From Candidatus Kapaibacterium sp. (GTDB taxonomy: Bacteria > Bacteroidota > Ignavibacteria > Kapaibacteriales > UBA2268), in NCBI GenBank assembly GCA_026390695.1, contig JAPLFL010000048.1, positions 339-64,338 of the forward strand: DNA of 64,000 nt, in the 5' to 3' direction. Below, in pieces: positions 1 to 63,372 of the stretch. Position 1 is the first letter of the stretch; each line of letters begins with the position of its first letter. The translations under genes and the position numbers were made by a program. The notes under the pieces were generated by a model that was not told where the DNA came from, did no database searches, and saw only the letters and a program-made list of their open reading frames with translations.

Positions 1-2145
1 TTTTTGAATATAAATATTCTCTCCACCTGCATTGGTTGTAATAACAGTAAAAGTTCTGCCGTTAGCTAAATTTATCACAGCTTTCGGGATTTGCGGCGAA
101 CCAAAACAATAAACGCCATTCGCCGGATTCAAAGGATAAAATCCAATGCTGCTAAATAAATACCAAGCTGACATTTGACCGCAATCTTCATTGCCGGAAT
201 AACCTGATTGGTTATCATTATATTGTTCGTTCATAATTTTTGCACTGTAGAATTGCGCTTTCCATGGCTCACTTGTATAATCATACAAATAGACAATATG
301 ATGACTTGGCTCATTTCCATGTGCGTATTGCCCGATAAATCCGGAAGCATTCCCATTTACGTCTTCCGGCTTTGCATTCAAAGTAAAAAATGTGTCAAGT
401 TTCTTAACAAAATCCTTATCACCACCCATTAAATTGATAAACGAATTAACTTCATGCGGCACATACCAAAGATATTGCCAGGCATTCCCTTCGGTAAACG
501 GAAAGCCGCCGTTTCCGCCATAAGCAAGAGGATTAAAAGGATTAATCCATTTGCCTCTTGCATCTTTAGCCCTAAAGAAATTGATGCTATTATCAAAAAG
601 ATTTTTATAATTTCCAGCACGTTTAGAGAAAAATGTATAATCTTCCTTTTTATCCATTTTTTTTGCCATTTGAGCTACGCACCAATCATCATAAGCAATT
701 TCAAGTGTCAATGATACGGATTGAGTCTGCAATTCCTCTGGGAAATATCCGTATTTATCCAAAATATCAAACGGAGCGTTTTTATGAGAAGTGGTGGAAG
801 ATGCTTTTATTGCCAGATAAGCCAATTCATAATCCACACCCGCAATTCCTTTGCAATAAGCATCGACAATAACCGGAATAGCGTGATTTCCAATCATGCA
901 ATAAGTTTCTGTGCCCCACAAATGCCATATTGGCAAATAACCATAAGTTTGGTAATCGCGTAGCATAGAGTTAATAAAACTGGCAGTTCTCTTTTCTTGC
1001 ACAAGTGTATAAAGAGGATGAGCAGCGCGGTAAGTATCCCAAAGTGAAAATGTAGAATAATGCGTGTTATCTGTTGAATGCTTTTGGCTATCATCAGTGG
1101 CTAAATAATCGCCCGACGCATCTGCAATATTATTGGGTTGAATAAGCAAATGATAAAGTCCTGTATAGAAAATACGTTTCTGGAGGTCGGAGCCTTCAAT
1201 TTCAATACAAGATAGTTCCTTATTCCACTGTTTATTTGTTGCAATTGTTATATTGTCAAAATTAAAATCATTAATCTCGGCGGATAAGTTATTTTTTGCA
1301 CCATCGGCTGAAACCGAAGAAAGCCCAACTTTAACAAGAACTGGTTGATTATTATTTTTATCAAAATTGAGAACTATCTTCAAATCTGCATTATTGGCCA
1401 CCGGTACATTATTAAAAATATATTTACCGGCTTTAAAAACGTATGAATCAAAGGGACGAGAGAATTCCGCTATGAAATATACCTTTCGGAGTTTCGCCCA
1501 GCCTGAAATAATCCTGTATCCTTCAATGGTTTTATTATCGACAACCCGCACCTGAGCGGAAATAATTTTGCAATATCTATACGGACTTGTCCTTATAAGA
1601 GAGTGATCTAAGTCCACAATCAAATGATAAGGCTTTGCATCGGGGAAAGTATATCTTTGTATTCCGCAATGCTGAGTTGCTGTGAGTTCTGCTTTAATAT
1701 TATAATCATCCAACACAACGCTGTAATAACCAGGATAAGCCTTTTCATTTGAATGTTTATATTTTGAACGGAATCCTTTAGTTTTGCCATCATCCGAGCC
1801 GGCGCTCCATTTTAAATTACCACCATAAGGCATAAATAGAAAATCGTATAAATCTGGACAGCCTGTGCCGTTCAAATGAGTGTGGCTAAAGCCAAGAATA
1901 GTTGTGTCATTGTAATCATAGCCGCTGCATGGATCGTCGGGATATTCTCTCGTATCGGGACTGAGTTGCACCAAACCAAATGGGGCACATGCTCCGGGAA
2001 AATTAGAACCGGACAGAGATAATGTATCAAGAGCGCCTGTACCGATAAAAGGATTTACAAATTTTGTGAAATCTACATTTTGTGAAAGCAAATTAGTCCA
2101 AAATGCAAATATAGCAAGGAAAAGGGATGCGAGTTTTTTTTTCAT
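1..2145 (-). CDS. Glycoside hydrolase family 92 (putative alpha-1,2-mannosidase); C-terminus runs off the window at position 1
   Basis: Minus-strand frame is open from the ATG at 2143-2145 to position 1 (translated by hand). N-terminal signal peptide MKKKLASLFLAIFAFW; GH92-like motifs FSHTHLNGTGC and GNEPSHH. The short plus-strand ORFs in the track (208..432 and others) lie antisense inside it. Confidence 0.8.
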   Translation of the reverse strand, partial: MKKKLASLFLAIFAFWTNLLSQNVDFTKFVNPFIGTGALDTLSLSGSNFPGACAPFGLVQLSPDTREYPDDPCSGYDYNDTTILGFSHTHLNGTGCPDLYDFLFMPYGGNLKWSAGSDDGKTKGFRSKYKHSNEKAYPGYYSVVLDDYNIKAELTATQHCGIQRYTFPDAKPYHLIVDLDHSLIRTSPYRYCKIISAQVRVVDNKTIEGYRIISGWAKLRKVYFIAEFSRPFDSYVFKAGKYIFNNVPVANNADLKIVLNFDKNNNQPVLVKVGLSSVSADGAKNNLSAEINDFNFDNITIATNKQWNKELSCIEIEGSDLQKRIFYTGLYHLLIQPNNIADASGDYLATDDSQKHSTDNTHYSTFSLWDTYRAAHPLYTLVQEKRTASFINSMLRDYQTYGYLPIWHLWGTETYCMIGNHAIPVIVDAYCKGIAGVDYELAYLAIKASSTTSHKNAPFDILDKYGYFPEELQTQSVSLTLEIAYDDWCVAQMAKKMDKKEDYTFFSKRAGNYKNLFDNSINFFRAKDARGKWINPFNPLAYGGNGGFPFTEGNAWQYLWYVPHEVNSFINLMGGDKDFVKKLDTFFTLNAKPEDVNGNASGFIGQYAHGNEPSHHIVYLYDYTSEPWKAQFYSAKIMNEQYNDNQSGYSGNEDCGQMSAWYLFSSIGFYPLNPANGVYCFGSPQIPKAVINLANGRTFTVITTNAGGENIYIQK

Positions 2146-2533
2146 AATTTTATTTTTAGAATATGTCTATAAATACCACCTTTTTGCCCGTATCGGATTA
2201 ACGAACACCATGCAAATTACAGAAAAATTTGGAATCCTGAAAGAAAAAGTATTTTCTATGAAGAAGAAAACTCGACATAAATAGCTGGCATGAACTTTAT
2301 TCTCCAATTGGCAGATTGTATTCCAGTGAAACCCTGAAATTTTTGCAAAATCTCTTTGCGAGATAGCGGTAGTTTCTCGCTTTTGCTGTTGTTTAATCAA
2401 CAAGGACTAAAAGTTGTTTTGATTAAATTCACTAAATAAGGTTTGGGCTGTGGGTGGGGGCACTTTTCTACTAAGGTTGAAGAAAAATAGGAAAAGAAAG
2501 AGCTTGGTAAAGCATAATAAAACTAATCTCAAG

Positions 2534-2615
2534 CCACATAGAACCCTTAAAACTCTGGGGCTTTTTATTTGAGGGCGCAATGCCAAGCGTGATGGAAGGG
2601 AGGAAGAAGAAATGA
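2534..2615. repeat. Conserved ~80-bp intergenic repeat, copy A (CCACATAGAACCCTTAAAAC..TGGGGCTTTTTATT..GGG..CAATGCCAAGCG..purine-rich GAAGAAGAAATGA)
   Basis: Near-identical copies at 3247..3328 and 4106..4179; aligned by eye to about 85-90% identity over ~75 bp. Confidence 0.8.
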
Positions 2616-2661
2616 ATCACAGCCCTCCAGTCAGGAGTTTTTTCTGACTGGGAAGGAATTT

Positions 2662-2895
2662 TCAAAGGCTATTATCATAAAGACAATCAGGGCAAATATC
2701 CTGACCACCTGCCCATTCAATAGTATTTCCAGAAACACGGACAGAATAAAATTTCTCTAAATCCAACAATTCAGAAAACCAATCACCATTTAAATAAGGG
2801 TGGCAATCAAATTTCCGCTTTTCACCATTAGAAAATTCAATTTCAAGAAAATAATCTGATAATGGTTTTACGTTTTGTGGTTTTATTCTTGTCAT
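2662..2895 (-). CDS. DUF2442-family small protein (partner of DUF4160; putative toxin-antitoxin-like pair)
   Basis: 77-aa ORF, 2-bp gap to the upstream partner. Sequence FLEIEFSNGEKRKFD...YSVRVSGNTIEWAGGQDICPDCLY is typical of DUF2442. Confidence 0.6.
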   Translation of the reverse strand: MTRIKPQNVKPLSDYFLEIEFSNGEKRKFDCHPYLNGDWFSELLDLEKFYSVRVSGNTIEWAGGQDICPDCLYDNSL

Positions 2896-2897
2896 TG

Positions 2898-3164
2898 CTA
2901 TCTCAATGGGTCAATCTTAAAATATTCTTTACCTTCGGAAAGTAATTTCCAATTCGCTTGCAAGTCTTCATTATGAATTTCAATCCAGGCTATCACCAAT
3001 TTCATCTTTTTAGCCGGCAGGCTTCCACTTAAAACATCTCCATCCAAAGAAATAACTGCTTCATCGTCCTGATATTCAGCATGTATGTGAGGTAAATTAT
3101 GACGGCTGTTAATTTCCCTGTACATTTTTATTATTATTCCGAAAAAGACACTCAAAATTGGCAT
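2898..3164 (-). CDS. DUF4160-family small protein
   Basis: 88-aa ORF. Motif YREINSRHNLPHIHAEYQDDEAVISLDG matches DUF4160, which is usually paired with DUF2442. Confidence 0.6.
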   Translation of the reverse strand: MPILSVFFGIIIKMYREINSRHNLPHIHAEYQDDEAVISLDGDVLSGSLPAKKMKLVIAWIEIHNEDLQANWKLLSEGKEYFKIDPLR

Positions 3165-3246
3165 AAATACTCCATTTTTAACAAACCCATTGTATAAACG
3201 ATTATATTTTATCTTTATTTTATTCTTGATTACTTTCTAAAGAATA

Positions 3247-3328
3247 CCACATAGAACCCTTAAAACCATGGGGCTTTTTATTAGGGGACACAATGCCAAG
3301 CGAGAAAAAGGGAATGAAGAAGAAATGA
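3247..3328. repeat. Conserved ~80-bp intergenic repeat, copy B
   Basis: Same core as copies A and C. Lies in the divergent spacer between the DUF4160 gene and brnT. Confidence 0.8.
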
Positions 3329-3515
3329 GGGAGAAGGGTTGGTAGGAAGATGGAATTTGGCTCTGGATGGAGGAGAGGGAGAAATAAAAAAGCCAATTAG
3401 TTAGGAAAAGACTAAATATAAAAAAAATTAAATTTTAATAGAATCAATTAAAATAAAGAATATTGATCAATCGTCATTAGATTTTGGAAATAGTTTTTAA
3501 TTAATTTTATGGTTT

Positions 3516-3776
3516 ATGTTTGAATTTGACGATAATAAAAGTAGAGCTAATGCTGAAAAGCACGGTATCAATTTCATAGAAGCACAAAAAATGTGGGAAG
3601 ACCCCTATTTGCTTGAAATAGCTGCGAGAACAGAAGATGAACCGCGTAATCTGATAATTGGAAAAATCGGCAAAGTTTATTGGTCTGCAATTGTAACATA
3701 TCGAAATTCAAATATAAGAATAATTTCTGTTCGACATTCACGAAAAGAGGAGATAAATATTTATGAAAGCTACTGA
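3516..3776 (+). CDS. brnT: BrnT-family ribonuclease toxin (DUF497)
   Basis: 86 aa; NKSRANAEKHGINFIEAQKMWEDPYLLEIAARTEDEPRNLIIGKI is a BrnT signature. Overlaps the downstream antitoxin gene by 14 bp. Confidence 0.75.
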   Translation: MFEFDDNKSRANAEKHGINFIEAQKMWEDPYLLEIAARTEDEPRNLIIGKIGKVYWSAIVTYRNSNIRIISVRHSRKEEINIYESY

Positions 3777-3987
3777 ATTTGATAATAAATTTGATTCTGG
3801 TGAGGATATTACCGGATTGCTTGATTTAAGTAAAGCAAAAAGAATCAATTTAACTCCCAAACGTATTAATCTCAATATGCCTCAATGGATGATTGATGAA
3901 TTAAACAAAGAAGCATTGAAATTAGGAGTATCCCGTCAATCTGTAATTAATATTTGGTTAGCAGAAAGATTGCAAGCAACTGCTTGA
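3763..3987 (+). CDS. brnA: BrnA-family antitoxin (CopG/RHH-like)
   Basis: 74 aa; C-terminal NMPQWMIDELNKEALKLGVSRQSVINIWLAERL matches the BrnA RHH domain. Overlapping gene pair with brnT. Confidence 0.7.
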   Translation: MKATEFDNKFDSGEDITGLLDLSKAKRINLTPKRINLNMPQWMIDELNKEALKLGVSRQSVINIWLAERLQATA

Positions 3988-4105
3988 TTTAATGCAGAAT
4001 GATTACTGAATGCAGAATGTAAAATTAATAATGCAAAATGATTGGATATTTGCTTCCTTCAGTCAGAATTTCTTTCTGACTATTGGGAATAAAACTAATC
4101 TTTGA

Positions 4106-4179
4106 CCACATAGAACCCTTAAAACCCTGGGGCTTTTTATTAGGGGACGCAATGCCAAGCGTGAGAAAGAGAAGAAGAA
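4106..4179. repeat. Conserved ~80-bp intergenic repeat, copy C; abuts the stop codon of the restriction-modification gene
   Basis: Same core sequence. Shares an extra 5' AACTAATCT stretch with copy A. Confidence 0.8.
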
Positions 4180-4180
4180 T

Positions 4181-7100
4181 CTATTCTCCTTCAACAATCT
4201 TTATTTCTTCATCAGTTAAATCATAGAGTTTATAAACTAATCGGTCGATTTGCTTATCGAGGGAATCGCAAATATTCTGATAAAGTATTTTATCACTTTC
4301 ATTTTTAGAAGCATACAAATATTTTTGATTTTCGAGTATTTGTTCAACAAGTCCGACTAATTTATCGTGCATTTGCTTTTCAGTGCGAATGGAGAAGTCT
4401 ATCGGTATCACAGGAATTTGATGTAATTCATAACCTGAAATAGTAGGCGTTTTAAATTTTGCACTATACCAAAAATTAATCAATTTTGAATTAATCAAAG
4501 CTAAAAAATATTTCAAGGAATGACTTTTTAAATTAGTTTTATTTGAGAAATAGGCAGTATCCAAAACGAAATATTTATCATAATCAATATAGGCAATGAG
4601 GCGCCTTCCGCTCCTACCTTGCAAAATGATTTTGGCATCAACAAAAAATACATCTTTGGTATGAGGCAAGCACCCAACTTTTTCTTTCATTAAATCAGGT
4701 CTATACAATAACCATAAATTATCATATTCTATACAATACCTCTGAATATTCTTTCCTCTTAATAATTTATAGCAGTTATTGTTTTCTTTTTTACTAAGTA
4801 TAAACCTTGAATCATTTGAAGTTTTAACACCTCTTGAAAAATGGATATAATCTTCAATAGGCTTATTCATATCAAGTTTATTCAATAATTCAAATTCAAT
4901 AATATTTGAATCAACAAATATTCTATATTTCGAATCTTTTGTTATATTTTCAGTAAGAATATCATTACTTTTCACAAAGGAATCTTTTGAATATGAGTAT
5001 ATTTCTAAATTTTTTACAAGATACTTCTGATAAATAATTATCACAGTTTCAACTTGTGCATCCTTAAATGTGCCATTTGGCATTTTGCATAATTTAGAAA
5101 TTGAACCATTTTGGAAAATTATTTTTCGTAAAATTTGAAAACTATCAATTGCTAACCATGAATTTGAGACCAAAAATCCGAGAATACTGTTTTTATTCGT
5201 TAGTTTTTTTATAATTAATTCTAAAAAATAAGCATATAAATCGACTTTGTTTCTAGTAATTGTATATTTATTTTTCAAATATTCTCTTATATAATCTTGA
5301 AGATTAACAATATTTACATAAGGAGGATTTCCAATCACTATATCAAAGCCACCTGATTTCATTATTTCGGGAAAACCATCTTTTCCACTCCAATCAAATG
5401 TATTTATTTTACGCTTTTCCTTTATGTTGAAAGCATTTGTTTGTTTATCATCATAAAAATCACTCCCTATAAGAGAGTTGCCGCACTTAATATTATCCTT
5501 TAAACTTGGCAGAACTGGCAAATTAAATATAGTATTGTCTTCTTTTATCTCGTCGCGAGTTGAGTCCTCAAGTGCTTTAACCGATAAACTGAAATTTGTT
5601 ACTAAAACAGCCTGTGGGTCAATATCAACCCCAAAAATATTATTTATTAGAATTTCAGATTTTAATTTATGAGATAAATGAATCTGAAAATAATCTGAGT
5701 TTGCATCCTGCATTACTCTGATTCTTTTTTCAGTTTTATTTCTGAATTTTTCAACTTTTTCTTTTTTTGACCACTTCTGTAATTCATTAAAATAATACTT
5801 CTTGTACCAGTCCAACAGCTTCTGGTATGCAACAATCAGAAAACTTCCCGAACCGCAAGCAGGGTCAAGAACTTTAATCTTTGAAACGTCTTCGGGAACT
5901 TTACATTCTTCGAGCTTATTACCAAGTGTATTATCTACAATATATTCCACAATATATCGTGGAGTGTAATAAACTCCACCAGCTTTTTTATCATCATATT
6001 TCGGAATTATCGAGACTGAGCCAGCTTTTTTAACAATCTGCTCTGCAATAAATAATTCATAAACATTTCCTATTATTTCAACAGGCATTGCTGCCAAAGT
6101 ATAAATTGAATTTTCGGGTTTTAATGATTCGAATATGTTCTTTAGAACTTTATTATCAATTAGAGCATCATCTGCGTTAGAATCATAATTAAACATTGAG
6201 CCATTGTAAATATGGTCAAGTCTATTAAATATATCATGACACAATTCAAATAGTTTAATTTCTGTTTTCTTTGATTTATCGATTTGGCTTAAAATATTTG
6301 TTAAATAATCAGTTTCGATATTTCTATCAGCAAGCATTTTTACGAAAATGATTCGGTTTATATATAATAAAGTTCCTTTTGTAAGTTGATAATCATCTGA
6401 ATTTTTATCATTTCGGAACATACTTTTAGCAATTTCGAGCCGCCAATACCTTAAATCTTCAAGGAATTGTTTATCGGGAGTTATTCGATTATCGGCAAGC
6501 TGTTTGGCTGATAAATACCACTTCTCCAGCGAACCATTTACGACATTATTATATTCAAATAATTCCCATATTTCATCGAATTTTGTAATGTATTCTTTGA
6601 AGTTCCAATCTTTGATGACGTGTTTATTAAAGGCTTCTGCTCTGTGTTGAGTAAGCGGTGCAGCATCCTGACAATCGAAGAAACGAAATTCCTCAAAATC
6701 AGTTAAAACTGCCAATCGGACATGATTATTCGGATTATCACATGAACTTAACGTTGAAAAAGCATACTGATAGACCTGTCTGATATATTGTTCATTAGTT
6801 TTCAAATCATAAATCGGCTTTTTTGCTTCAATGAAGAAAACGGATTTCATTGCATTTGTATTTTGGTCAGGAATACGAACAAGATAATCAGGTCGTTTAT
6901 TGCTGTCCTGGCCAGTTTTACCAGTCGGTTGTAAAGTGAATACCTGTTTTTCAGGCTCTAATCCACGATTTGAAACATTCCAATTCAGAAACTGAAAGAG
7001 TGGGCGGATAAAATCATTCTCCACCTGCGCCTCTTTATAGTCCTTTCCTTTGAAATAAGAAATTCCTTTTTCAAAATCCTTGACTAAATCAGATATTTCT

Positions 7101-7201
7101 TTCTTAGCTTCTGCTTTGGTATATGTTTTCAGCAATTGAAATGGATAGAATAAAACTACAAAATTAACTAAATTCTCATAATAATCAAAATACATTATCA
7201 A
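4181..7201 (-). CDS. Type IIG/IIL single-chain restriction-modification enzyme (MmeI-like): N-terminal PD-(D/E)xK endonuclease, gamma-class N6-adenine methyltransferase, and target-recognition domain
   Basis: 1006 aa. N-terminal RPDYLV...FFIEAKKP gives a D...ExK nuclease motif; DPACGSGSFL is methyltransferase motif I; VIGNPPYV is motif IV (NPPY), placing motif I before motif IV. Confidence 0.7.
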   Translation of the reverse strand: MIMYFDYYENLVNFVVLFYPFQLLKTYTKAEAKKEISDLVKDFEKGISYFKGKDYKEAQVENDFIRPLFQFLNWNVSNRGLEPEKQVFTLQPTGKTGQDSNKRPDYLVRIPDQNTNAMKSVFFIEAKKPIYDLKTNEQYIRQVYQYAFSTLSSCDNPNNHVRLAVLTDFEEFRFFDCQDAAPLTQHRAEAFNKHVIKDWNFKEYITKFDEIWELFEYNNVVNGSLEKWYLSAKQLADNRITPDKQFLEDLRYWRLEIAKSMFRNDKNSDDYQLTKGTLLYINRIIFVKMLADRNIETDYLTNILSQIDKSKKTEIKLFELCHDIFNRLDHIYNGSMFNYDSNADDALIDNKVLKNIFESLKPENSIYTLAAMPVEIIGNVYELFIAEQIVKKAGSVSIIPKYDDKKAGGVYYTPRYIVEYIVDNTLGNKLEECKVPEDVSKIKVLDPACGSGSFLIVAYQKLLDWYKKYYFNELQKWSKKEKVEKFRNKTEKRIRVMQDANSDYFQIHLSHKLKSEILINNIFGVDIDPQAVLVTNFSLSVKALEDSTRDEIKEDNTIFNLPVLPSLKDNIKCGNSLIGSDFYDDKQTNAFNIKEKRKINTFDWSGKDGFPEIMKSGGFDIVIGNPPYVNIVNLQDYIREYLKNKYTITRNKVDLYAYFLELIIKKLTNKNSILGFLVSNSWLAIDSFQILRKIIFQNGSISKLCKMPNGTFKDAQVETVIIIYQKYLVKNLEIYSYSKDSFVKSNDILTENITKDSKYRIFVDSNIIEFELLNKLDMNKPIEDYIHFSRGVKTSNDSRFILSKKENNNCYKLLRGKNIQRYCIEYDNLWLLYRPDLMKEKVGCLPHTKDVFFVDAKIILQGRSGRRLIAYIDYDKYFVLDTAYFSNKTNLKSHSLKYFLALINSKLINFWYSAKFKTPTISGYELHQIPVIPIDFSIRTEKQMHDKLVGLVEQILENQKYLYASKNESDKILYQNICDSLDKQIDRLVYKLYDLTDEEIKIVEGE

Positions 7202-7279
7202 ATTCGGCTCCTACACCGTCCCCGCAGGACCCGCTCCCTCAGCATAAACTATAAATCGTTGCTGGGGGGACTTGTCATT

Positions 7280-7471
7280 TCATTGCGTTGCCGCTTGAAT
7301 AGCTTGTTCAATTTTGACATAATTACCATTTAAATACGAAATAACTTGCAAACCGGATTTCTTCTGCTTTTCTTTCAAGTCACAGTAAATAGCATCTATA
7401 TCGTAATTAAATTTAGCAGCGTGTTTTTCACGAACTTGTCGTATATCTTCAACAATAGCGTCTTCCCACAT
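7280..7471 (-). CDS. Small hypothetical protein (63 aa) immediately upstream of, and co-oriented with, the RM gene; candidate regulator or antitoxin-like protein
   Basis: Complete ORF: MWEDAIVEDIRQVREKHAAKFNYDIDAIYCDLKEK... No recognisable HTH. Position suggests it is the first gene of the RM operon. Confidence 0.4.
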   Translation of the reverse strand: MWEDAIVEDIRQVREKHAAKFNYDIDAIYCDLKEKQKKSGLQVISYLNGNYVKIEQAIQAATQ

Positions 7472-7847
7472 AATTTATTCCTTAATTAGTTCATGCGATT
7501 TATCTTTTGATGACCTGCAATAATCAGGTCTCTACTTGGTTTTGCAGTCAAATAGCTAATTACGCTTGTTTCAATATATTCTTTTTTCTTTTCCATTTTT
7601 CAAATTTAACTAAATTTTCATAAAAATCAAAACCTTGTTTTTTAGAAAAATGAACTAAGCCAACGCTTACTTTTATTTTTCAACCTTAAAATCCTCTATA
7701 TAATTCTCTCGGCTAATTAATCACTTATACAGATTTATTAATATTTATTTAATTTGCAAAGCCTTACTTAACAAATCTTCATCTCCGGTCAGATTTTCAA
7801 TCTTACTGATCTTTTATATAAAGTCCATCAATAAATTAAAATTTTGT

Positions 7848-7931
7848 CAGACGAGGACGTCTGACATACTATGCGGTAGAACAGACCTCCTCGTCTGACA
7901 TACTATGCGGTAGAACAGACGTCCTCGTCTG
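7848..7931. repeat. Array of three 16-bp hairpin palindromes (CAGACG-N4-CGTCTG) separated by two identical 18-bp spacers (ACATACTATGCGGTAGAA)
   Basis: Read directly: cagacgaggacgtctg / cagacctcctcgtctg / cagacgtcctcgtctg. The first and third are reverse complements of each other. Confidence 0.7.
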
Positions 7932-8210
7932 TTTAGTTATTATTATTTATAAAATATTATATAATAGTCATAAGCAACTCCAGACTATAAGAAAACTTTT
8001 GACCTCATATTTTCCAAACTATTTCGCACGTCGTTTTTGAAAAGTTTTGTTGACAGCAAGATTTTCTTCCCTTATTTTTGTAGGTTAGTTCATTGAAATA
8101 ATTGAAAATTGCTTGGTCTGAGCTTGTTTCTAAAGCTATCTTATTTTTAGGGATAGATTTAATTTCTGAATTTAGGTAAACAGCAGGAATAAATTATAAA
8201 ATATTAATAT

Positions 8211-8440
8211 TTATGCGTACTTGCATACAATTTTATGCAATTCCACTGGAACGCGGCTTCTGCTCTGTAAAAAGCACTTCATAACTTCACCAGAAATTAG
8301 TATGCAACTTTATCCAACGATATGCAAAGAAGCTGAGATACCGCTTCTGATCTATCTAAAACGTTGCATAATATTTATTCATACCTTATGCAGATTTATA
8401 CAATCAGATGCAAATATATGCAATAGACGATATTTTACTG
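8211..8440. promoter_or_regulatory. Cluster of about 10 TATGCA(A/G)/TTGCATA motifs within 230 bp (candidate iteron or operator array)
   Basis: Motif copies read directly, e.g. tatgcgtacttgcatacaattttatgcaa ... tatgcaa ... tatgcaa ... ttgcata ... tatgcag ... atgcaaatatatgcaat. Confidence 0.35.
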
Positions 8441-8470
8441 TTAAAGCCAAATATTTCATTAGGCAAGAGA

Positions 8471-8504
8471 AAATCCCCCTACCCCCTTTTTCAAAGGGGG
8501 ATTT
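8471..8504. other. Perfect 10-bp stem-loop (AAATCCCCCT ... AGGGGGATTT)
   Basis: Inverted repeat read from sequence. Flanks are not T-rich, so function is unclear; it could be a terminator or a structured RNA. Confidence 0.4.
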
Positions 8505-8514
8505 AACTAAATTG

Positions 8515-8643
8515 AGCCTGTCTTAAAAGCCACATATTTAACAAAAATGTCAATGCTGCGTATGCAGGAATCTCCTTCCAGTGCCACTTTAGGGGATTCC
8601 TGCATTCGCAGGAATGACAGAAATGAGGCTTTTTAGACAGCCT
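8515..8643. mobile_element. MITE-like palindromic element, family A, copy 1 (terminal inverted repeats GGCTGTCT(A/C)AAAAGCC; two internal REP-like hairpins with a GATTCCTGCATTCGCAGGAATGAC core)
   Basis: About 90% identical to the reverse complement of 47320..47447, compared by eye over the full length. Confidence 0.7.
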
Positions 8644-8801
8644 CCAGGGGAGATTTAAGAAAGCTCTTTATTAGCATATAATATTTCAATTACATTAAAT
8701 CTTAATGAAATATTTGTGTTAAACATCAAATGTTTGTAAAAAAAAGGTGAACCAAAGTCCACCTCTTATATGAAAAATCTTGATTTTTAGTTAGTAAATT
8801 A

Positions 8802-10115
8802 TCATGTTCCTGCATTATAATTATTCATATAATTGAGTTGCTCTTCGGAAAGTGCATCCATACTAACACCCATCATTTCAAGTTTAGTTTTGGCAACAAA
8901 CTCATCTTGTTCGATAGGAATGTCTATGACAGCTTTTGCAAGTGGAGTTCCTTTTTTATAATTTTCAAGAATATAAAGATGCGACAGGAACTGATTGGCA
9001 AAAGACATATCCATAACTTCAGAAGGATGACCTTCGGCAGCAGCCAAATTGATTAAGCGACCTTGAGCTAAAAGATAGATTCTGCGTCCATCTTTTAAAG
9101 TATATTCTTCGCAATTTGATCGGATAGTTCTTTTACTTACAGATAATTCTTCAAGTTCAGGAATATTGATTTCCACATCATAATGACCGGTATTGCTTAT
9201 AATCGCACCATCTTTCATAACTTCATAGTGAGGTTTGCGGATAATATCTTTCACGCCCGTTGCAGTAATGAAAATATCGCCTTCTTTAGCGGCTTCGTCC
9301 ATAGTCATTACGCGATGACCTTCGAGTGTGGCTTTGATTGCAGCCGTTGCTTTTACTTCTGTACAAATCGTGTTTGCACCCATGCCTTTTGCACGTTTAG
9401 CAACACCGCTACCGCAGTGACCATGTCCAGCAACAACAATATTTTTACCAGCAAGAAGTACAGAGGTAGCACGGATTACGCCATCAAGAGTTGACTGTCC
9501 TGTTCCATAGACATTATCAAAATCCCATTTTGTTTCAGTGTCATTAACTGCAACAACCGGATAAAGTAATTGTCCATCAGCAGAACGAGAACGAAGACGA
9601 TGAACGCCGGTTGTAGTTTCTTCTGTTCCGCCAATAACATGATTGACAGCCATATCACGATAATTTTCGTGAACGGTATTGATTAAATCGCAGCCATCAT
9701 CAAGCGTTAAATGCGGAGCATCATCAATTGTGCGATCTATGCACCAGTAGAAATCTTCGCCATTATCGTACCAAGCGTAGATAGAGACTCCATCGGCAGC
9801 AATAGCAGCAGCTACAGCATCATTGGTAGAAAGTGGATTACATCCGGACCATGAAACTTCAGCACCCGCATCAACGAAAGTACGGATTAACACTGCTGTT
9901 TCTTTAGTAACGTGCAAACAACCTGCGATTTTAAAACCGGCAAAAGGTTTTGTTTCGCTATATTTTTTTCTTAAACTCATCATAACAGGCATGTGTGCTT
10001 CAGCCCAGTCAACTAAAAGTCTTCCTTCCTCTGCCAGACCAATATCGCGAACACAATATTTGCCCGGTACTTCATCGAATTTACCCTGTGCTTTTTTAGG
10101 GGGTATTTGAGACAT
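8802..10115 (-). CDS. ahcY: Adenosylhomocysteinase (S-adenosyl-L-homocysteine hydrolase)
   Basis: 437 aa; NAD-binding GHGHCGSGVAKRAKGMGA, and CNPLSTNDAVAAAIAADG. Confidence 0.9.
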   Translation of the reverse strand: MSQIPPKKAQGKFDEVPGKYCVRDIGLAEEGRLLVDWAEAHMPVMMSLRKKYSETKPFAGFKIAGCLHVTKETAVLIRTFVDAGAEVSWSGCNPLSTNDAVAAAIAADGVSIYAWYDNGEDFYWCIDRTIDDAPHLTLDDGCDLINTVHENYRDMAVNHVIGGTEETTTGVHRLRSRSADGQLLYPVVAVNDTETKWDFDNVYGTGQSTLDGVIRATSVLLAGKNIVVAGHGHCGSGVAKRAKGMGANTICTEVKATAAIKATLEGHRVMTMDEAAKEGDIFITATGVKDIIRKPHYEVMKDGAIISNTGHYDVEINIPELEELSVSKRTIRSNCEEYTLKDGRRIYLLAQGRLINLAAAEGHPSEVMDMSFANQFLSHLYILENYKKGTPLAKAVIDIPIEQDEFVAKTKLEMMGVSMDALSEEQLNYMNNYNAGT

Positions 10116-10150
10116 TTTTTTTCTCCGAAAAATATATACGTAAAATTTAA

Positions 10151-11290
10151 TTAAATCTTTTTAAACAAATCAACTAACTCCAGAGCTTCCCAAGGAAATT
10201 CAGGACGTCCGAAATGGCCATAAGCAGAGGTAGCGCGGTAAATTGGGCTACGTAAATTGAAACGATCAATAATCCCTTTTGGAGTTAGATCTATATTTTT
10301 GCTAATATAATCGGAAATTGCAATTCCACTGATTTCCGAACTGCCATGAGTATTAACATATACTGAAACAGGCTGTGCTACTCCAATAGCATAAGAAAGC
10401 TGAATTGTACATTCTTTTGCAATACCGGCAGCCACAATATTTTTTGCAAGATGGCGTGCTGCATAAGCACCTGAGCGATCGACTTTAGATGGATCTTTAC
10501 CGGAGAAAGCGCCTCCACCGTGAGGAGCACGTCCGCCATAAGTATCGACGATAATTTTGCGACCTGTAAGTCCGGTATCACCATGCGGGCCACCAATTTC
10601 AAATCTTCCTGTAGGATTAATATGATAAATTGTTTTATCATCTAATAAATTTGCAGGCATAACTTTTTTGATAATGTGTTCGGTTACATCCTGATGAATT
10701 TTTTCCTGACTTACATCGGGATCGTGCTGAACAGACATTACGACCGTATGTGCACGAATGATTTCACCGTTATCTGCATATTCCAGTGTTACCTGAGATT
10801 TAGCATCCGGTCTGAGATAGGGCATTGCAGAGTTGACAGTTTTAAATACTTCTGTATGTTTAGCAACAAGTTTATGTGAAAACATAATAGGTGCAGGCAT
10901 AAGCTCTTCTGTTTCGGTAGAAGCATAACCGAACATCATTCCTTGATCTCCGGCTCCACCAACATCAACGCCCATGGCTATGTCAGGAGATTGTTGATTG
11001 ATAACATTGACAACTGCACAGGAATAAGAATCGAAGCGGTATCCGGCTTTTGTATATCCGATATCTTCGATAACTCCACGTACAAGTTTTTGTAAATCCA
11101 CATAAGTTGTTGTAGTAATTTCGCCACCGACAACGATTAATCCTGTTGATGCGAAACATTCGCAAGCTACTCGTGAAGACGGATCATCGCGGAGCATCGC
11201 ATCAAGAACAGTATCTGATACTTGATCGCATATTTTATCCGGATGACCTTCGGAAACAGATTCCGAAGTGAAAAGAAAGTTTTTGCTCAT
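10151..11290 (-). CDS. metK: S-adenosylmethionine synthetase
   Basis: 379 aa; N-terminus [22 protein letters not shown], and [19 protein letters not shown]. Confidence 0.92.
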
Positions 11291-11341
11291 GATTTATCCT
11301 AATTTATACTAATTAACAAAATATTTAAGGTTATTAAATTT

Positions 11342-12319
11342 TTATGCATATTTGATTTCGCTTGAATCACCTACATTCAATCGAAAGAATTGACCTTTAA
11401 CGACAGCATTATTCCCAATAATCGAACGATCAAGAAGTGATTGTTCTACTCTGGAATTTTCGCTGATAATTGAATCTTTTATAATACTATTGCGCACAAC
11501 GGCTCCTTCGGCAATGGATGCAAATGGTCCGATAACTGATGTTTCTACATGTGCTGTAGGAGCGATATAAACCGGTGGAATGATAATAGCATCCGAATAA
11601 ATATTATTGGTATTCATCTTTTCAAGTAAAATCCGATTTGTTGATAGCATTGTTTCAGGTTTACCGCAGTCATACCAGCCATCAACATTGAATGAAGTAA
11701 ATTTCTCGCCATTATTGAGCATAAGCTGAAGGGCATCGGTCAATTGATATTCATCACGGGTACGAATATCTTCATCAATTAATTTTTCGAGACAAGTTCT
11801 TAAAAGTGATGGATTGCTTATATAATAGATTCCGACTATTGCAAGGTTTGAAACCGGTGTCTCTGGTTTTTCGATCAGTTTATTAATAAAACCGTCATTT
11901 GAGTGAACAACAACTCCAAAACGTCTGGGGTCGCTAACTTCTTTAACTCCGATAGAGCAGTATTTACTTTCGGAAACTGATTTTAAATCAGCATCAAAAA
12001 TAGTATCCCCAAGAATAATCATCAGTGGCTCATCTTCAAATGTTTCGCGAGCAGTCCAAATAGCATGACCCAAACCATATTGCTCCGTTTGCTGACAATA
12101 GTCCACATGAAAATGATAATGTGTATTGACGTACTGCTCGACTAAATCACCCTTATAACCGGTAATAATCGTCACTTTGTCCACATTATTTTCTTGAAGT
12201 GCATCTAATATATGTCCTAAAATAGGTTTTCCGGCAACATTTAAGAGAACCTTAGGTAAAGAATAGGTAAACGGTCGTAATCTTGCACCAACTCCGGCTA
12301 CGGGTATAATAGCTCTCAT
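11342..12319 (-). CDS. Sugar-phosphate nucleotidyltransferase with a C-terminal left-handed beta-helix (G1P thymidylyl/uridylyl- or mannose-1-P guanylyltransferase-like)
   Basis: MRAIIPVAGVGARLRPFTYSLPKVLL nucleotidyltransferase signature, with C-terminal hexapeptide repeats. The track ORF extends to 12343; MRAII is the likelier start. Confidence 0.7.
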   Translation of the reverse strand: MRAIIPVAGVGARLRPFTYSLPKVLLNVAGKPILGHILDALQENNVDKVTIITGYKGDLVEQYVNTHYHFHVDYCQQTEQYGLGHAIWTARETFEDEPLMIILGDTIFDADLKSVSESKYCSIGVKEVSDPRRFGVVVHSNDGFINKLIEKPETPVSNLAIVGIYYISNPSLLRTCLEKLIDEDIRTRDEYQLTDALQLMLNNGEKFTSFNVDGWYDCGKPETMLSTNRILLEKMNTNNIYSDAIIIPPVYIAPTAHVETSVIGPFASIAEGAVVRNSIIKDSIISENSRVEQSLLDRSIIGNNAVVKGQFFRLNVGDSSEIKYA

Positions 12320-21876: not shown

Positions 21877-22044
21877 AAATATATTTAACTTTGTTAACAA
21901 TTGAAGAATTCAAGTAGGCAGTCTCGTAAGTTACGTTTCTGTCATTGATGCCAGTGCAGGAATCGCCTAAAGCGTAACTGAAAGGGGATTCACGCTTGCG
22001 AGAGTGCGTGAAAACGAGGAAATTCCACTTGAATGTCATTCCCG

Positions 22045-22185
22045 CGCATGAGACTGTGTGAAAACACGAAATATTCACGTATCTGTCATTCCCGCGCATG
22101 CGGGAATCCCCTTCCATGGCGCAATTGGGGATTTCTGCATACGCAGGTATGACAAGAAATTGCAGTTTTCACACAAGCTCATGCG
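22045..22185. mobile_element. MITE-like element, family B (TIR CGCATGAG(A/C)(C/T)TGTGTGAAAAC); contains the REP palindromes GTCATTCCCGCGCATGCGGGAATCCCC and GGGGATTTCTGCATACGCAGGTATGAC. Related partial copies lie at 21935..22040
   Basis: Inverted repeat 22045-22065 versus 22165-22185 (19/21 match). Shares the REP core with family A. Confidence 0.6.
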
Positions 22186-47298: not shown

Positions 47299-47319
47299 GT
47301 TTGTAAAGTTTCAAACTAG

Positions 47320-47447
47320 AGGCTGTCTCAAAAGCCTCATTTCTGTCATTCCTGCGAATGCAGGAATCCCCTAAAGTGGCACTGGAAGGAGATTCCTGCA
47401 TAAGCAGGAATGACATTTTTGTTAAATATGTGGCTTTTGAGACAGTT
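47320..47447. mobile_element. MITE-like palindromic element, family A, copy 2 (inverted relative to 8515..8643)
   Basis: TIRs aggctgtctcaaaagcc / ggcttttgagacag; internal hairpins tcattcctgcgaatgcaggaat and gattcctgcataagcaggaatgac. Confidence 0.7.
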
Positions 47448-47530
47448 TCAAGTTTTTCCCTCCGGTATTGGCTCTAGTAGAACATCTTCGGTTGGTTTCG
47501 TTTAATAAATATAAAAAGGTAAATTTAAAT

Positions 47531-47648: not shown

Positions 47649-47654
47649 GGTTTG

Positions 47655-47695
47655 AGAAAGTAGAAGGTAGAAAAGTAGAAAAGTAGAAAAAGAGA
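47655..47695. repeat. Tandem heptamer repeat (A/G)GTAGAA(A) x5
   Basis: gagaaagtagaaggtagaaaagtagaaaagtagaaaaagag. Similar arrays occur at 52432..52474 and, in reverse orientation, at 63251..63286. Confidence 0.6.
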
Positions 47696-57517: not shown

Positions 57518-58027
57518 ATGAGCGAATCGACTGAACTATTAGGGAAAGTACAAACACAAGGAACATTTTCAAGTGATCTCCTTCAACTTGTTAGTTTTAA
57601 TCTTGGCGATGAAGAATTTGGGATTGATATTCTCAGAGTACAGGAGATAATCAGAATGGTGGACATTACCCGTGTACCCAATGCACCATCCTTTGTTATT
57701 GGAGTGATCAATTTAAGGGGGAAAGTAATTCCGGTAATTGACCTGAATCTGCGAATGGCACTAAACACATCCGAACTGAGCAACAACAGCCGCATTATAG
57801 TAATTGAATTTGAAGGCAAGGTTGTCGGCTTTTTAGTTGATAAAGTAAATGAAGTCCTCAGGATTGATAAAAGCATTACCGAGCCGCCACCACAGATGGT
57901 TGGATCGGTTAACTCCGATTTTATTACTGGAATCGGGAAATTAGAGAACAGATTACTTATTTTGTTAGATTTGGAGAAATTATTGAATAAAGTCACCGAT
58001 CCGGAGATAACCGGATCGGTGGAATGA
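57518..58027 (+). CDS. cheW: CheW-like chemotaxis coupling protein (stand-alone)
   Basis: 169 aa; near-canonical CheW: FNLGDEEFGIDILRVQEIIRMVDITRVPNAPSFVIGVINLRGKVIPVIDL...RLLILLDLEKLL. Confidence 0.85.
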   Translation: MSESTELLGKVQTQGTFSSDLLQLVSFNLGDEEFGIDILRVQEIIRMVDITRVPNAPSFVIGVINLRGKVIPVIDLNLRMALNTSELSNNSRIIVIEFEGKVVGFLVDKVNEVLRIDKSITEPPPQMVGSVNSDFITGIGKLENRLLILLDLEKLLNKVTDPEITGSVE

Positions 58028-63250: not shown

Positions 63251-63286
63251 TTCTACTTTCTACTTTTCTACCTTCTACTTTCTATA
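63251..63286. repeat. Tandem heptamer repeat TTCTAC(T)T x5 (reverse orientation of the GTAGAAA family)
   Basis: ttctactttctacttttctaccttctactttctat. Confidence 0.6.
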
Positions 63287-63372
63287 ACCGGGGTAAGATG
63301 GGTGTGTAATGATTTTATAGGTGCTCTTACGAATAAGAGAAATTTTGATTTAAGATTTATTTTGAGGAAAAT

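What the first reader, a model, noticed from the sequence alone, without database searches (positions are those of the whole stretch)
2400..7480. Defense islet of three small cassettes punctuated by three copies of a conserved ~80-bp repeat
Between a GH92 gene and the ahcY/metK operon lie a DUF4160/DUF2442 pair, a BrnT/BrnA toxin-antitoxin pair and an MmeI-like Type IIG restriction-modification gene. Each junction carries the same ~80-bp element (2534-2615, 3247-3328, 4106-4179), and I found no other copy in the remaining ~59 kb. Conservation (about 85-90%) is far higher than expected for neutral intergenic DNA in three different contexts. Two copies sit at the 3' end of minus-strand cassettes, and the third lies in a divergent spacer. 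The element ends in a purine-rich GGAGG-like stretch followed by ATGA, and contains a GGGGCUUUUUAUU terminator-like tail. This cassette-plus-repeat layout resembles an integron-like or shufflon-like array, or a family of 3'-UTR or sRNA modules tied to mobile defense genes, but it has no canonical attC core sites. That combination makes it a candidate undescribed cassette-punctuating element.
Basis: partly seen in the sequence, partly recalled or inferred. Interest (0 to 1): 0.75.

Follow-up and report, generated by a model that had tools for sequence, protein, structure and literature searches.

The report
Reiterated gene-end fragments between defence cassettes
The ~80-bp repeat is three decayed copies of the last 25-35 codons of a membrane-transporter gene (AI-2E/PerM family), most likely scars left where small toxin-antitoxin and restriction cassettes were inserted one after another, not a new RNA or an integron-like site.

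Summary
Three direct copies (2513-2615, 3246-3328, 4089-4179; 85-87% identical) separate a DUF4160/DUF2442 pair, a BrnT/BrnA pair and a type IIG restriction-modification (RM) gene, and the window has no other copy.

The interpretation needs revising. Read in one + frame, each copy encodes the conserved C-terminus of an AI-2E family transporter (PerM, "...IKLIFDHIEPLKPWGFLLGDTMPS..KKK*"). Copies 1 and 2 still carry its stop codon. In 90 of 92 assessable public loci the same DNA is the 3' end of a full-length ~370-aa PF01594 gene. The "GGGGCUUUUUAUU" tail encodes W-G-F-L-L, and the purine-rich end encodes a Lys/Arg tail plus TGA.

The copies show no significant fold, no Rfam match, no attC cores and no terminal inverted repeats. 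The 64 kb holds no integrase or transposase and no intact perM.

Four other toxin-antitoxin islets fetched here have the same layout around a different gene end (tyrS, a type IIG RM gene, an RND adaptor, an RHS core).

The best reading is serial insertion of selfish cassettes at a gene's 3' end, each event duplicating or re-supplying that end. This is akin to "insertion with long target duplication". The mechanism is inferred. Interest is moderate to low.

The parts
2513..2615 (+). Copy 1 (C1): a decayed 3'-terminal fragment of an AI-2E/PerM gene. It reads SIIKLISSHIEPLKLWGFLFEGAMPSVMEGRKKK* with the stop codon TGA at 2613-2615, and it is the most degenerate copy.
   Evidence: nhmmer with a profile of 87 perM 3' ends gives E=1.4e-12 for 2513-2588. 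tblastn gives E=2e-4 to 6e-4. The frame and stop codon were read from the sequence.
2623..2654 (+). H1: a hairpin-forming short repeat (CCTCCAGTCAGGAGTTTTTTCTGACTGGGAA). It lies 7 nt after the stop codon of copy 1 and 7 nt before the DUF2442 stop codon.
   Evidence: Local alignment to 4055-4088 scores 33 against a shuffle mean of 13+-2.3, with 0 of 2000 shuffles as high. It is family D7. The 60 nt after copy 1 fold at -19.1 kcal/mol, against a median of -5.5 downstream of perM in 104 loci.
2662..3164 (-). DUF4160 (2898-3164) / DUF2442 (2662-2895) two-gene cassette, a DhiT/DhiA-like putative toxin-antitoxin pair.
   Evidence: Pfam E=7e-23 and 4e-13. NCBIfam DhiT scores 63 bits, below its cut-off. 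DNA homology to the same cassette in L132 and L135 covers only 2669-3227, which is exactly the gap between H1 and copy 2.
3246..3328 (+). Copy 2 (C2): a perM 3'-terminal fragment, (Y)HIEPLKPWGFLLGDTMPSEKKGMKKK* with the stop codon TGA at 3326-3328. It lies in the divergent spacer between the DUF4160 and BrnT operons.
   Evidence: nhmmer perM profile E=1.9e-15. tblastn E=5e-7.
3516..3987 (+). BrnT (3516-3776) / CopG-type BrnA antitoxin (3763-3987) cassette.
   Evidence: Pfam PF04365 E=2.8e-23 and PF12441 E=5.5e-8.
4055..4088 (+). H3: the second copy of the hairpin repeat, directly abutting copy 3 on its left. Its right half resembles perM codons about -45 to -37 only weakly.
   Evidence: The best match to perM upstream codons is reached by 5 of 200 shuffles.
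4089..4179 (+). Copy 3 (C3): a perM 3'-terminal fragment, (G)IKLIFDHIEPLKPWGFLLGDAMPSVRKRRR.. A small deletion has removed the original stop codon. The fragment ends 1 nt from the stop codon of the convergent RM gene.
   Evidence: nhmmer perM profile E=3.6e-21. tblastn E=1.4e-8.
4181..7201 (-). Type IIG (Eco57I/MmeI-like) fused restriction-methyltransferase gene.
   Evidence: Pfam hits to Eco57I, MmeI_Mtase, N6_Mtase, TaqI_C and HSDR_N. It is 100% identical to an NCBI protein named 'MAG: N-6 DNA methylase [Candidatus Kapabacteria bacterium]'.
7159..7190 (-). Left copy of a 32-nt direct repeat (91% identical) at the 5' end or promoter of the RM gene. With 7601-7632 it brackets a small two-ORF unit.
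   Evidence: Family D14 and D5; E=5.5e-6 in self-BLAST. It fits the Bacteroidetes-type promoter pattern TTTG-N19-TAnnTTTG (own knowledge, not tested).
7280..7596 (-). Two small ORFs (63 aa at 7280-7471, 36 aa at 7486-7596) with no family match. They may form a fourth small cassette.
   Evidence: ORFs listed. No Pfam or NCBIfam hit.
7601..7632 (-). Right copy of the 32-nt direct repeat, immediately upstream of the 36-aa ORF.
2167..2403 (-). A weak ORF whose first ~36 residues look like a truncated HTH/XRE-type antitoxin. It lies between the GH92 promoter and copy 1 and may be a remnant at the left edge of the islet.
   Evidence: ORF listed. It gives only sub-threshold NCBIfam hits to HipB/PuuR-type HTH models (E~0.1) and no Pfam hit, so the assignment is tentative.

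Best explanation
The repeat is not an element in its own right. It is three decayed, directly repeated copies of the 3'-terminal ~80-100 nt (the last ~25-35 codons, with the stop codon in copies 1 and 2) of an AI-2E family transporter (PerM) gene. They are best read as junction scars. Small selfish cassettes (DUF4160/DUF2442, BrnT/BrnA, a type IIG RM gene) entered one after another at the 3' end of that gene. Each entry either duplicated the gene end or brought a surrogate copy of it, so a displaced gene-end fragment was left beside every cassette. No dedicated recombinase is encoded nearby. The process resembles the 'insertion with long target duplication' described for RM units, or a Campbell-type single crossover between a short homologous gene-end segment on incoming circular DNA and the resident gene end. 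The body of perM has since been lost from this locus, or the array was imported as a block. What is shown: the identity of the repeat, the absence of RNA or attC features, the absence of mobility genes, and the recurrence of the layout elsewhere. What is inferred: the order of events and the recombination mechanism.
For: Identity of the repeat. A whole-collection scan with the repeat core hit Bacteroidota genomes in which it is the end of a 366-368 aa gene. That gene is PF01594 AI-2E_transport, E=5e-53 and 1e-62. In the metagenome scan, 90 of 92 assessable loci carry the core as the 3' end of a full-length gene. A DNA profile of 87 such gene ends hits only the three copies in the window, with E=3.6e-21, 1.9e-15 and 1.4e-12. 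tblastn gives E=1e-8 to 6e-4. Copies 1 and 2 end at an in-frame TGA 72 nt after the GAA of the IEPLKPW motif.

Absence of mobility genes. No integrase or transposase appears among the window ORFs of at least 150 aa scanned (the 20-64 kb ORFs and two near 17-19 kb), the islet genes, or the pre-annotated genes at 8.8-20 kb. The islet has lower GC (26-35%) than its flanks (36-42%).

Recurrence with other anchor genes. In L127, the last 47-63 nt of tyrS are repeated twice (100% and 94% identical) between a 264-aa ORF and a Gp49/HigB-like pair. In L128, the C-terminal ~70-96 nt of a type IIG RM gene are repeated twice between DUF6883/DUF4926 and Zeta-toxin cassettes. In L135, 115 nt of an RND adaptor gene's 3' region are repeated inside a Phd/YoeB + DUF4160/DUF2442 islet. 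In L132, an RHS core-end fragment is repeated between DUF4160/DUF2442, Phd/YoeB and HicAB cassettes. In L127, L128 and L135 the intact gene sits at the upstream end of the array, as the model predicts.

Within the window, a 32-nt direct repeat also brackets the two-ORF unit upstream of the RM gene. The published precedent is RM units flanked by 46-423 bp target duplications without mobility genes, some overlapping gene 3' ends (PMC2853133).
Against: There is no intact perM upstream of copy 1 or anywhere else in the 64 kb, so the predicted target gene is missing here. No empty-site genome could be found for comparison: the only other copies of this region are two short contigs from the same sample. 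Downstream of intact perM in about 55 other loci lie GH130, glycosyltransferase, MlaE and similar genes, never TA, RM or integrase genes, so the perM end is not a general hotspot. The order C1-H1-cassette-C2-cassette-H3-C3 needs at least one extra event. In L127 each displaced fragment has its own different tail and stop codon. That fits incoming DNA supplying a surrogate gene end better than a plain duplication, so the two sub-mechanisms are not resolved. The recurrence rests on five independent comparison islets reached through homologues of this window's own genes (four with the layout, one without), not on an unbiased survey. Direct repeats of 40-250 nt also occur in 14 of 110 unrelated control loci. 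Only one of these was inspected; it looked like ordinary intergenic repeats.
Confidence: 0.6

Rival explanations
1. The copies are attachment sites (attL/attI/attR) of non-autonomous integrative cassettes. A tyrosine or serine recombinase encoded elsewhere in the genome moves them in trans, targets the perM 3' end and carries a surrogate gene end in attP. This would be accretion as in cis-mobilizable elements beside ICEs, SGI1 tandem arrays or tycheposon islands.
For: The direct repeats cover a gene's 3' end through the stop codon, which is the classic footprint of integrases that target gene ends. In L127 there are 47 nt of perfect identity followed by a different tail and stop codon in each displaced fragment, which looks like crossover in a common core with element-supplied ends. 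The two displaced L127 copies share the same left boundary. The Logan contig from the same sample starts inside copy 2, which hints at structural heterogeneity at that joint.
Against: There is no recombinase in 64 kb or in the fetched flanks of L127, L128, L132 and L135. Five different anchor genes in five islets would need five different specificities. The cassettes are only 0.6-3 kb. perM ends in about 55 other genomes have no integrase beside them. The perM C-terminal peptide is not found in 50,697 phage records, and its only hits in 72,556 plasmid records are ordinary transporter genes.
Confidence: 0.2
2. This is passive gene decay. The locus once held perM paralogues or a locally duplicated perM pseudogene, and deletions left only the 3' ends. 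The cassettes arrived independently and the repeats played no part in their arrival.
For: Tandem perM paralogues exist (L034/L056). Orphan perM C-terminal fragments occur elsewhere without any cassettes (L121; probably L130, not checked). All three copies share an unusual short Lys-rich tail. Two of them (copies 1 and 3) have the same hairpin repeat nearby. This suggests that the copies derive from one another within this lineage.
Against: Three independent deletions would all have to stop within about 20-45 codons of the stop codon. The same punctuated layout recurs with unrelated anchor genes, including a single-copy housekeeping gene (tyrS) whose displaced copies are 94-100% identical to the gene. 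The DUF cassette fills the H1-to-C2 gap exactly.
Confidence: 0.13
3. One reading: a functional non-coding module that punctuates cassettes. It would be an integron-like attC or shufflon site, or a shared 3'-UTR, sRNA or terminator module tied to defence genes.
For: The repeat sits at cassette junctions. A strong hairpin (H1) lies just after copy 1, between two convergent genes.
Against: The repeat is coding sequence of a conserved transporter. Its fold energy is no better than shuffles on either strand, with z from -0.8 to +0.6. The alignment fold shows no compensatory change. There is no Rfam match up to E=10. There is no RYYYAAC...GTTRRRY pair. The copies' orientation relative to the cassettes is inconsistent. 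No terminator-like site was called within copies 1 or 2; one overlaps the 3' end of copy 3 at the RM stop codon, on the minus strand.
Confidence: 0.04

Closest known systems
Insertion with long target duplication of restriction-modification units (Nobusato et al. 2000 as cited in, and extended by, Furuta, Abe & Kobayashi 2010, PMC2853133)
   Same: Small selfish gene units are bracketed by long direct repeats of the target (46-423 bp in that paper), with no transposase or integrase. Some of those repeats overlap the 3' end of a neighbouring gene. The authors propose a life cycle of invasion, amplification through the repeats, and release.
   Different: Those cases were defined by comparison with an empty-site genome, which I could not do. 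They concern single RM insertions. Here the units are mostly toxin-antitoxin pairs stacked in series around one reiterated gene end, and the target gene itself is absent from the locus.
Accretion arrays of integrative elements at a gene's 3' end (cis-mobilizable elements beside streptococcal ICEs at fda, SGI1 at trmE, tycheposon islands with partial tRNA repeats). This rests on own knowledge; SGI1 tandem integration appears only as a listed title and abstract.
   Same: Both have cargo modules lacking recombinases, separated by direct repeats that reproduce the 3' end of the target gene. In both, the element supplies a surrogate gene end.
   Different: No integrase was found in cis or anywhere in 64 kb. 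The modules are far smaller (0.6-3 kb). The anchor gene differs in every islet examined.
Orphan toxin/immunity arrays downstream of rhs genes, each preceded by a fragment of the conserved core end (own knowledge; an instance is seen in L132)
   Same: A reiterated fragment of the 3' end of a conserved coding region punctuates small two-gene cassettes, and homologous recombination at the fragment is thought to swap the modules.
   Different: In rhs arrays the fragment is fused in frame to a toxin tip and has a functional rationale. Here the fragment is a dead end of a transporter gene and the cassettes are self-contained operons in either orientation.
Integron cassette arrays and CALINs
   Same: Both have sub-kilobase to 3-kb promoter-poor or self-contained cassettes, rich in toxin-antitoxin genes, each separated by a ~60-140 bp repeat.
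   Different: There is no hairpin-forming imperfect palindrome, no R/L core sites, no IntI, and the cassettes have mixed orientation.

Membership tests
AI-2E family transporter (PF01594 / PerM) gene, 3'-terminal fragment | In-frame sequence homology to the conserved C-terminal segment of family members, ending at a stop codon | tested here: met
   tblastn E=1e-8 to 6e-4. nhmmer profile of 87 gene ends E=3.6e-21 to 1.4e-12. The full-length homologues score PF01594 E=5e-53 and 1e-62. TGA is in frame in copies 1 and 2.
AI-2E family transporter (PF01594 / PerM) gene, intact gene | A ~330-residue transmembrane domain upstream of the C-terminal motif | tested here: not met
   Stop codons and unrelated DNA lie upstream of each copy. 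There is no other perM-like hit in the 64 kb at E<0.1. The copies are therefore fragments, not genes.
Integron attC site / CALIN | Imperfect inverted repeat (R''-L''/L'-R') that folds into a stable hairpin as a single strand | tested here: not met
   DNA folding of both strands of all three copies gave MFE -4 to -8 kcal/mol, with z-scores from -0.82 to +0.62 against shuffles.
Integron attC site / CALIN | Core sites RYYYAAC and GTTRRRY at the two ends, 50-160 nt apart | tested here: not met
   No such pair occurs on either strand of 2400-4300.
Integron attC site / CALIN | IntI integrase nearby (absent in CALINs) and cassettes in one orientation with attC at the 3' end | tested here: not met
   No recombinase in the window. 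The cassettes lie on both strands.
MITE / IS end | Terminal inverted repeats, short target-site duplication, multiple dispersed copies | tested here: not met
   No inverted-repeat arms lie within or flank the copies. The only copies are the three in the islet. Collection scans return gene ends, not dispersed elements.
Described structured RNA family (Rfam 15) | A match to a covariance model, or a conserved structure with covariation | tested here: not met
   No hit overlaps the copies even at E<=10. The consensus fold has 13 pairs and 0 compensatory changes.
Insertion with long target duplication (criteria of PMC2853133) | Direct repeats longer than 30 bp bracket an insert shorter than 20 kb that carries selfish genes, with no mobility genes | tested here: met
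   Repeats of 76-93 nt bracket inserts of about 0.6-0.8 kb, with a >3 kb RM unit following the last copy. No mobility genes were found. The criteria were read. That paper's criteria also require both R and M gene homologues within the insert; the two bracketed inserts here are TA pairs, so that element is not met.
Insertion with long target duplication (criteria of PMC2853133) | The repeats align to one single-copy sequence at the same locus in a related genome lacking the insert | not testable with these tools
   No related genome with this locus was retrievable.
Site-specific integrative element array (att accretion) | Intact target gene at one end of the array, and a cognate recombinase | tested here: not met
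   There is no intact perM and no recombinase in the window. The intact anchor gene is present in the analogous arrays L127, L128 and L135, but no recombinase was called there either.
Type II toxin-antitoxin cassettes | Adjacent small genes matching toxin and antitoxin families | tested here: met
   BrnT_toxin plus CopG_antitoxin, and DUF4160 plus DUF2442. DhiT and DhiA give sub-threshold matches. Toxicity was not tested.

The most novel reading that the evidence does not exclude
Reiterated gene-end fragments are the working parts of an integrase-independent cassette system. A short copy of a conserved gene's 3' end travels with each toxin-antitoxin or defence cassette. General recombination between neighbouring copies excises a cassette-plus-fragment circle. 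A single crossover with any matching gene end re-inserts the circle while keeping the host gene intact. This would be an integron-like economy run on homology tags rather than attC/IntI, and it would explain how defence islets grow at the ends of housekeeping genes in Ignavibacteria/Kapabacteria-like bacteria.
Probability: 0.2. Interest if true: 0.7.

Novelty: new member of a known kind. Interest (0 to 1): 0.4.

Why it matters
As a sequence feature the repeat is ordinary. It is a pseudogene fragment, and recognising it removes a false lead for a new RNA or recombination site. The architecture is more useful. Five TA/defence islets (this one and four fetched for comparison) show small selfish cassettes separated by copies of the 3' end of whichever gene lies upstream. 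Three of those gene ends belong to ordinary cellular genes: perM, tyrS and an RND adaptor. That extends the poorly understood 'insertion with long target duplication' pattern from single RM units to serial arrays of toxin-antitoxin cassettes. It also offers a simple, searchable signature (reiterated gene-end fragments) for finding where, and in what order, defence islets accrete without recognisable mobility genes.

Tried and rejected
- **Rfam.** An E<=10 scan of 1-12000 found nothing on the copies.
- **tRNA/tmRNA origin of the repeat.** There are only two tRNAs, both near 47.6-47.9 kb.
- **Folding.** Single-strand folding and alignment folding showed no signal.
- **Viral contig scan with the core.** No hits.
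- **Phage and plasmid tblastn with the perM C-terminal peptide**, looking for an attP. No phage hit, and only two weak plasmid hits (one annotated as an AI-2E transporter gene, one unannotated).
- **Source genome or relatives through exact-protein look-ups.** Only two short Logan contigs from one sample were found.
- **Synteny test.** Window proteins searched against 110 perM loci gave no hits.
- **Contexts of short perM-like ORFs on long contigs.** One was a genuine orphan fragment without cassettes (L121) and one looked like one (L130, remnant check not run). Two were frameshifted genes (L125, L131). L080, from the metagenome scan, was also a frameshifted gene.
- **RM homologue contexts for perM fragments.** None were found.
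- **Census of genes downstream of intact perM.** No TA, RM or integrase genes.
- **Literature searches for perM/AI-2E as an integration site.** Nothing specific.
- **Whether H is perM coding sequence.** Only weak support, with 5 of 200 shuffles as good. H-like sequence beside perM in other loci was not found.
- **Possible 22-nt inverted repeat at the islet edges** (2472-2493 / 7667-7688). Judged to be chance in AT-rich DNA and not pursued.
- **A control locus with many repeats (L076).** It looked like ordinary intergenic repeats.

Full report
**Observation.** The region contains three direct copies of an ~80-100 nt sequence at 2513-2615, 3246-3328 and 4089-4179. They are 85-87% identical pairwise. 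A profile built from the three finds nothing else in the 64 kb.
- DUF2442 and DUF4160 on the minus strand;
- BrnT and a CopG-type antitoxin on the plus strand;
- a 1006-aa Eco57I/MmeI-type fused restriction-methyltransferase on the minus strand;
- a GH92-like ORF running off the left edge (family not scanned here);
- ahcY and metK to the right.

**What the repeat is.** A scan of one genome per species with the 19 specified bases of the core returned eight loci. Five were chance matches. In three Bacteroidota genomes the match continued on both sides with a third-base wobble pattern. There it is the 3' end of a 366-368 aa gene that scores as PF01594, AI-2E family transporter (PerM), at E=5e-53 and 1e-62.

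A metagenome scan with a wobble-tolerant core returned 110 loci. In 90 of the 92 that could be assessed, the match is the end of a full-length gene whose C-terminus reads ...AIVKLIFDHIEPLKPWGFLLGDTMP... followed by a variable Lys/Arg-rich tail. Read in the same frame, the window copies encode:
- copy 1: SIIKLISSHIEPLKLWGFLFEGAMPSVMEGRKKK*
- copy 2: (Y)HIEPLKPWGFLLGDTMPSEKKGMKKK*
- copy 3: (G)IKLIFDHIEPLKPWGFLLGDAMPSVRKRRR...

Copies 1 and 2 end at an in-frame TGA, and copy 3 has lost it through a small deletion. tblastn of two full-length PerM proteins against the window gives E=1e-8 to 6e-4 for the three copies and nothing else below 0.1. A DNA profile of the last ~340 nt of 87 perM genes hits only the three copies, at E=3.6e-21, 1.9e-15 and 1.4e-12.

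GGGGCTTTTTATT encodes W-G-F-L-L. The purine-rich stretch plus ATGA is the Gly/Lys/Arg tail and the stop codon. The high conservation reflects a strongly constrained coding segment: the 53-nt core is 92% identical to perM genes of unrelated organisms.

**What it is not.**
- The copies overlap no Rfam family, even at E<=10.
- Neither strand of any copy folds better than shuffled sequence, with z from -0.8 to +0.6. The alignment fold has no compensatory pair.
- There is no RYYYAAC...GTTRRRY pair and no terminal inverted repeats.
- The copies are neither tRNA nor tmRNA fragments.
- No integrase, transposase or other recombinase appears among the scanned ORFs of at least 150 aa or the pre-annotated genes. 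Beyond the islet the window is housekeeping: RecA, IleRS, AspRS, Lon, a PBP and so on.
- There is also no intact perM.

**Source and context.** The RM protein is 100% identical to an NCBI entry from a Candidatus Kapabacteria MAG. The only other copies of this DNA that I could retrieve are two short contigs assembled from a single sequencing run, so no empty-site comparison was possible. The islet has lower GC (26-35%) than its flanks (36-42%). In about 55 other genomes the genes downstream of intact perM are GH130, glycosyltransferases, MlaE, shikimate kinase and the like, never TA, RM or integrase genes. The perM end is therefore not a general insertion hotspot. Orphan perM ends do occur elsewhere as plain gene remnants (L121, probably L130).

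**Fine structure.** A second short, hairpin-forming repeat, H, lies 7 nt to the right of copy 1 (2623-2654) and directly to the left of copy 3 (4055-4088). Its alignment score is 33 against 13+-2.3 in shuffles, with 0 of 2000 as high. The order is therefore C1-H1-[DUF4160/DUF2442]-C2-[BrnT/BrnA]-H3-C3-[RM].

DNA homology between the window's DUF cassette and the same cassette in two other genomes covers 2669-3227 only, which is exactly the gap between H1 and C2. Whether H is perM coding sequence just upstream of the copy (weak support) or a hairpin just downstream of the perM stop codon (it folds at -19 kcal/mol) is unresolved. Either way, at least one event beyond simple serial insertion is needed.

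A separate 32-nt direct repeat (91% identical; 7159-7190 and 7601-7632) brackets a unit of two small unassigned ORFs upstream of the RM gene.

**Recurrence elsewhere.** To see whether the cassettes travel with perM fragments, I fetched contexts of homologues of the RM and DUF4160 proteins. None carries perM fragments. Four of the five independent islets nonetheless show the same layout around a different gene:
- **L127.** The last 47-63 nt of tyrS recur twice downstream (100% and 94% identical), separating a 264-aa ORF and a Gp49/HigB-like pair.
- **L128.** The C-terminal ~70-96 nt of a type IIG RM gene (...VYELYGLTEEEIRIVEG*) recur twice, separating DUF6883/DUF4926 and Zeta-toxin cassettes.
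- **L135.** A 115-nt piece of the 3' region of an RND adaptor gene recurs inside an islet with Phd/YoeB and DUF4160/DUF2442.
- **L132.** An RHS core-end fragment recurs six or more times between DUF4160/DUF2442, Phd/YoeB and HicAB cassettes.

In L127, L128 and L135 the intact gene sits at the upstream end of the array. L126 shows no such repeat. This is a small and non-random sample. Direct repeats of similar size also occur in 14 of 110 control loci. Only one of these was inspected; it looked like ordinary intergenic repeats.

**Mechanism.** The most economical reading is that small selfish cassettes enter at the 3' end of a gene in a way that keeps the gene whole and leaves a displaced copy of its end beside the insert. 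Repetition then builds an array punctuated by gene-end fragments.

This matches the published pattern 'insertion with long target duplication'. There, RM units are flanked by 46-423 bp direct repeats of the target, without mobility genes, and sometimes overlap a gene's 3' end. The authors propose a cycle of invasion, amplification through the repeats, and release (PMC2853133).

In L127 each displaced tyrS fragment carries its own different tail and stop codon after 47 nt of perfect identity. That looks more like a single crossover within a shared core, with the incoming DNA supplying a surrogate gene end. This could be a Campbell-type homologous event or an att-type site-specific event. The data do not separate these sub-mechanisms.

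A dedicated recombinase acting in trans cannot be excluded. It is made less likely by its absence from every locus examined and by the five different anchor genes. Passive decay of perM paralogues is possible for this window alone, but it does not explain the recurrence.

In the window the body of perM must have been deleted later, or the array was imported as a block. A weak truncated HTH-like ORF between the GH92 promoter and copy 1 hints at a deletion at the left edge.

**Comparison, novelty and verdict.** The repeat itself is a known kind of thing, a gene remnant. The layout is a further instance of a described but mechanistically unexplained mode of RM-gene insertion, here involving toxin-antitoxin pairs stacked in series. 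It is not an integron, CALIN, MITE, shufflon or RNA module. I rate it a new member of a known kind, with moderate to low interest (0.4).

The most novel reading still open is that gene-end fragments act as portable homology tags for an integrase-free cassette exchange. I give that about 0.2 probability. It would be worth testing by read-level analysis of the source sample, an empty-site comparison, and a systematic survey.

Noticed in passing
window 8509-8647 and 47316-47454 (also 21916-22112): A 139-nt repeat occurs in inverted orientation (94% identical), with diverged relatives near 22 kb. It contains GTCATTCCTGCGAATGCAGGAATCCCCT-type hairpins. One copy lies between the islet and ahcY, and another lies ~120 nt from tRNA-Gln. 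It looks like a MITE/REP-like dispersed element. A Logan contig of the same sample ends about 140 nt past ahcY, near this element (window ~8660).
   Followed up: partly
window 29419-30427: A tandem array of ~16 copies of a 63-nt unit (60-89% identical) lies inside overlapping ORFs 29350-30072 and 30323-31582. This may be a 21-residue-repeat protein with no Pfam match in its first part.
   Followed up: no
window 7845-7934: Two tandem 34-nt units (97% identical) are flanked by terminator-like hairpins (TGTCAGACGAGGACGTCTGACA) in the non-coding stretch between the islet and ahcY.
   Followed up: no
window 7203-7270: A GC-rich segment (GGCTCCTACACCGTCCCCGCAGGACCCGCTCCC...) sits in an otherwise AT-rich islet. 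The Logan contig of the same sample ends at 7285, just beyond it.
   Followed up: no
window 3990-4045 and 8200-8430: There are clusters of ATGCA-containing motifs: AATGCAGAATG twice plus AATGCAAAATG after BrnA, and many ATGCAA/TTGCAT motifs upstream of ahcY. They may be regulator-binding sites.
   Followed up: no
window 7159-7190 / 7601-7632: The 32-nt duplicated segment fits the Bacteroidetes-type promoter pattern TTTG-N19-TAnnTTTG (own knowledge). Alignment to a homologue starts at residue 27 of the annotated RM ORF, so the annotated RM start codon may lie too far upstream.
   Followed up: partly
L126 4622-8392 (Ignavibacteria MAG GCA_016844745.1): A type IIG RM gene carries an inserted Y1_Tnp (REP-associated tyrosine transposase-like) domain. 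Two 79-nt direct repeats, each holding the palindrome AACAATGGAGCATGCTCCATTGTT, lie at 5990-6068 and 6641-6719 inside the gene.
   Followed up: no
L127 3600-5175: A REP-like palindrome, GGGCAATTCATGAATTGCCC, is repeated five times between small TA cassettes (DUF433/DUF5615).
   Followed up: no
L132 5100-10700: An RHS/YD-repeat core-end fragment (..YNYCNNSPMMFRDPSGM) is reiterated between ordinary TA pairs (DUF4160/DUF2442, Phd/YoeB, HicAB) rather than only before toxin tips. TA cassettes appear to occupy orphan slots of an rhs array.
   Followed up: partly
window 58024-59652: An N6_N4 DNA methylase gene sits immediately after cheW. No partner endonuclease was identified among the scanned neighbouring ORFs.
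   Followed up: no
window 47649-47681 and 63257-63289: A 33-nt inverted repeat (94% complementary; GGTTTGAGAAAGTAGAAGGTAGAAAAGTAGAAA) has arms 15.6 kb apart. One arm is adjacent to tRNA-Gln.
   Followed up: no
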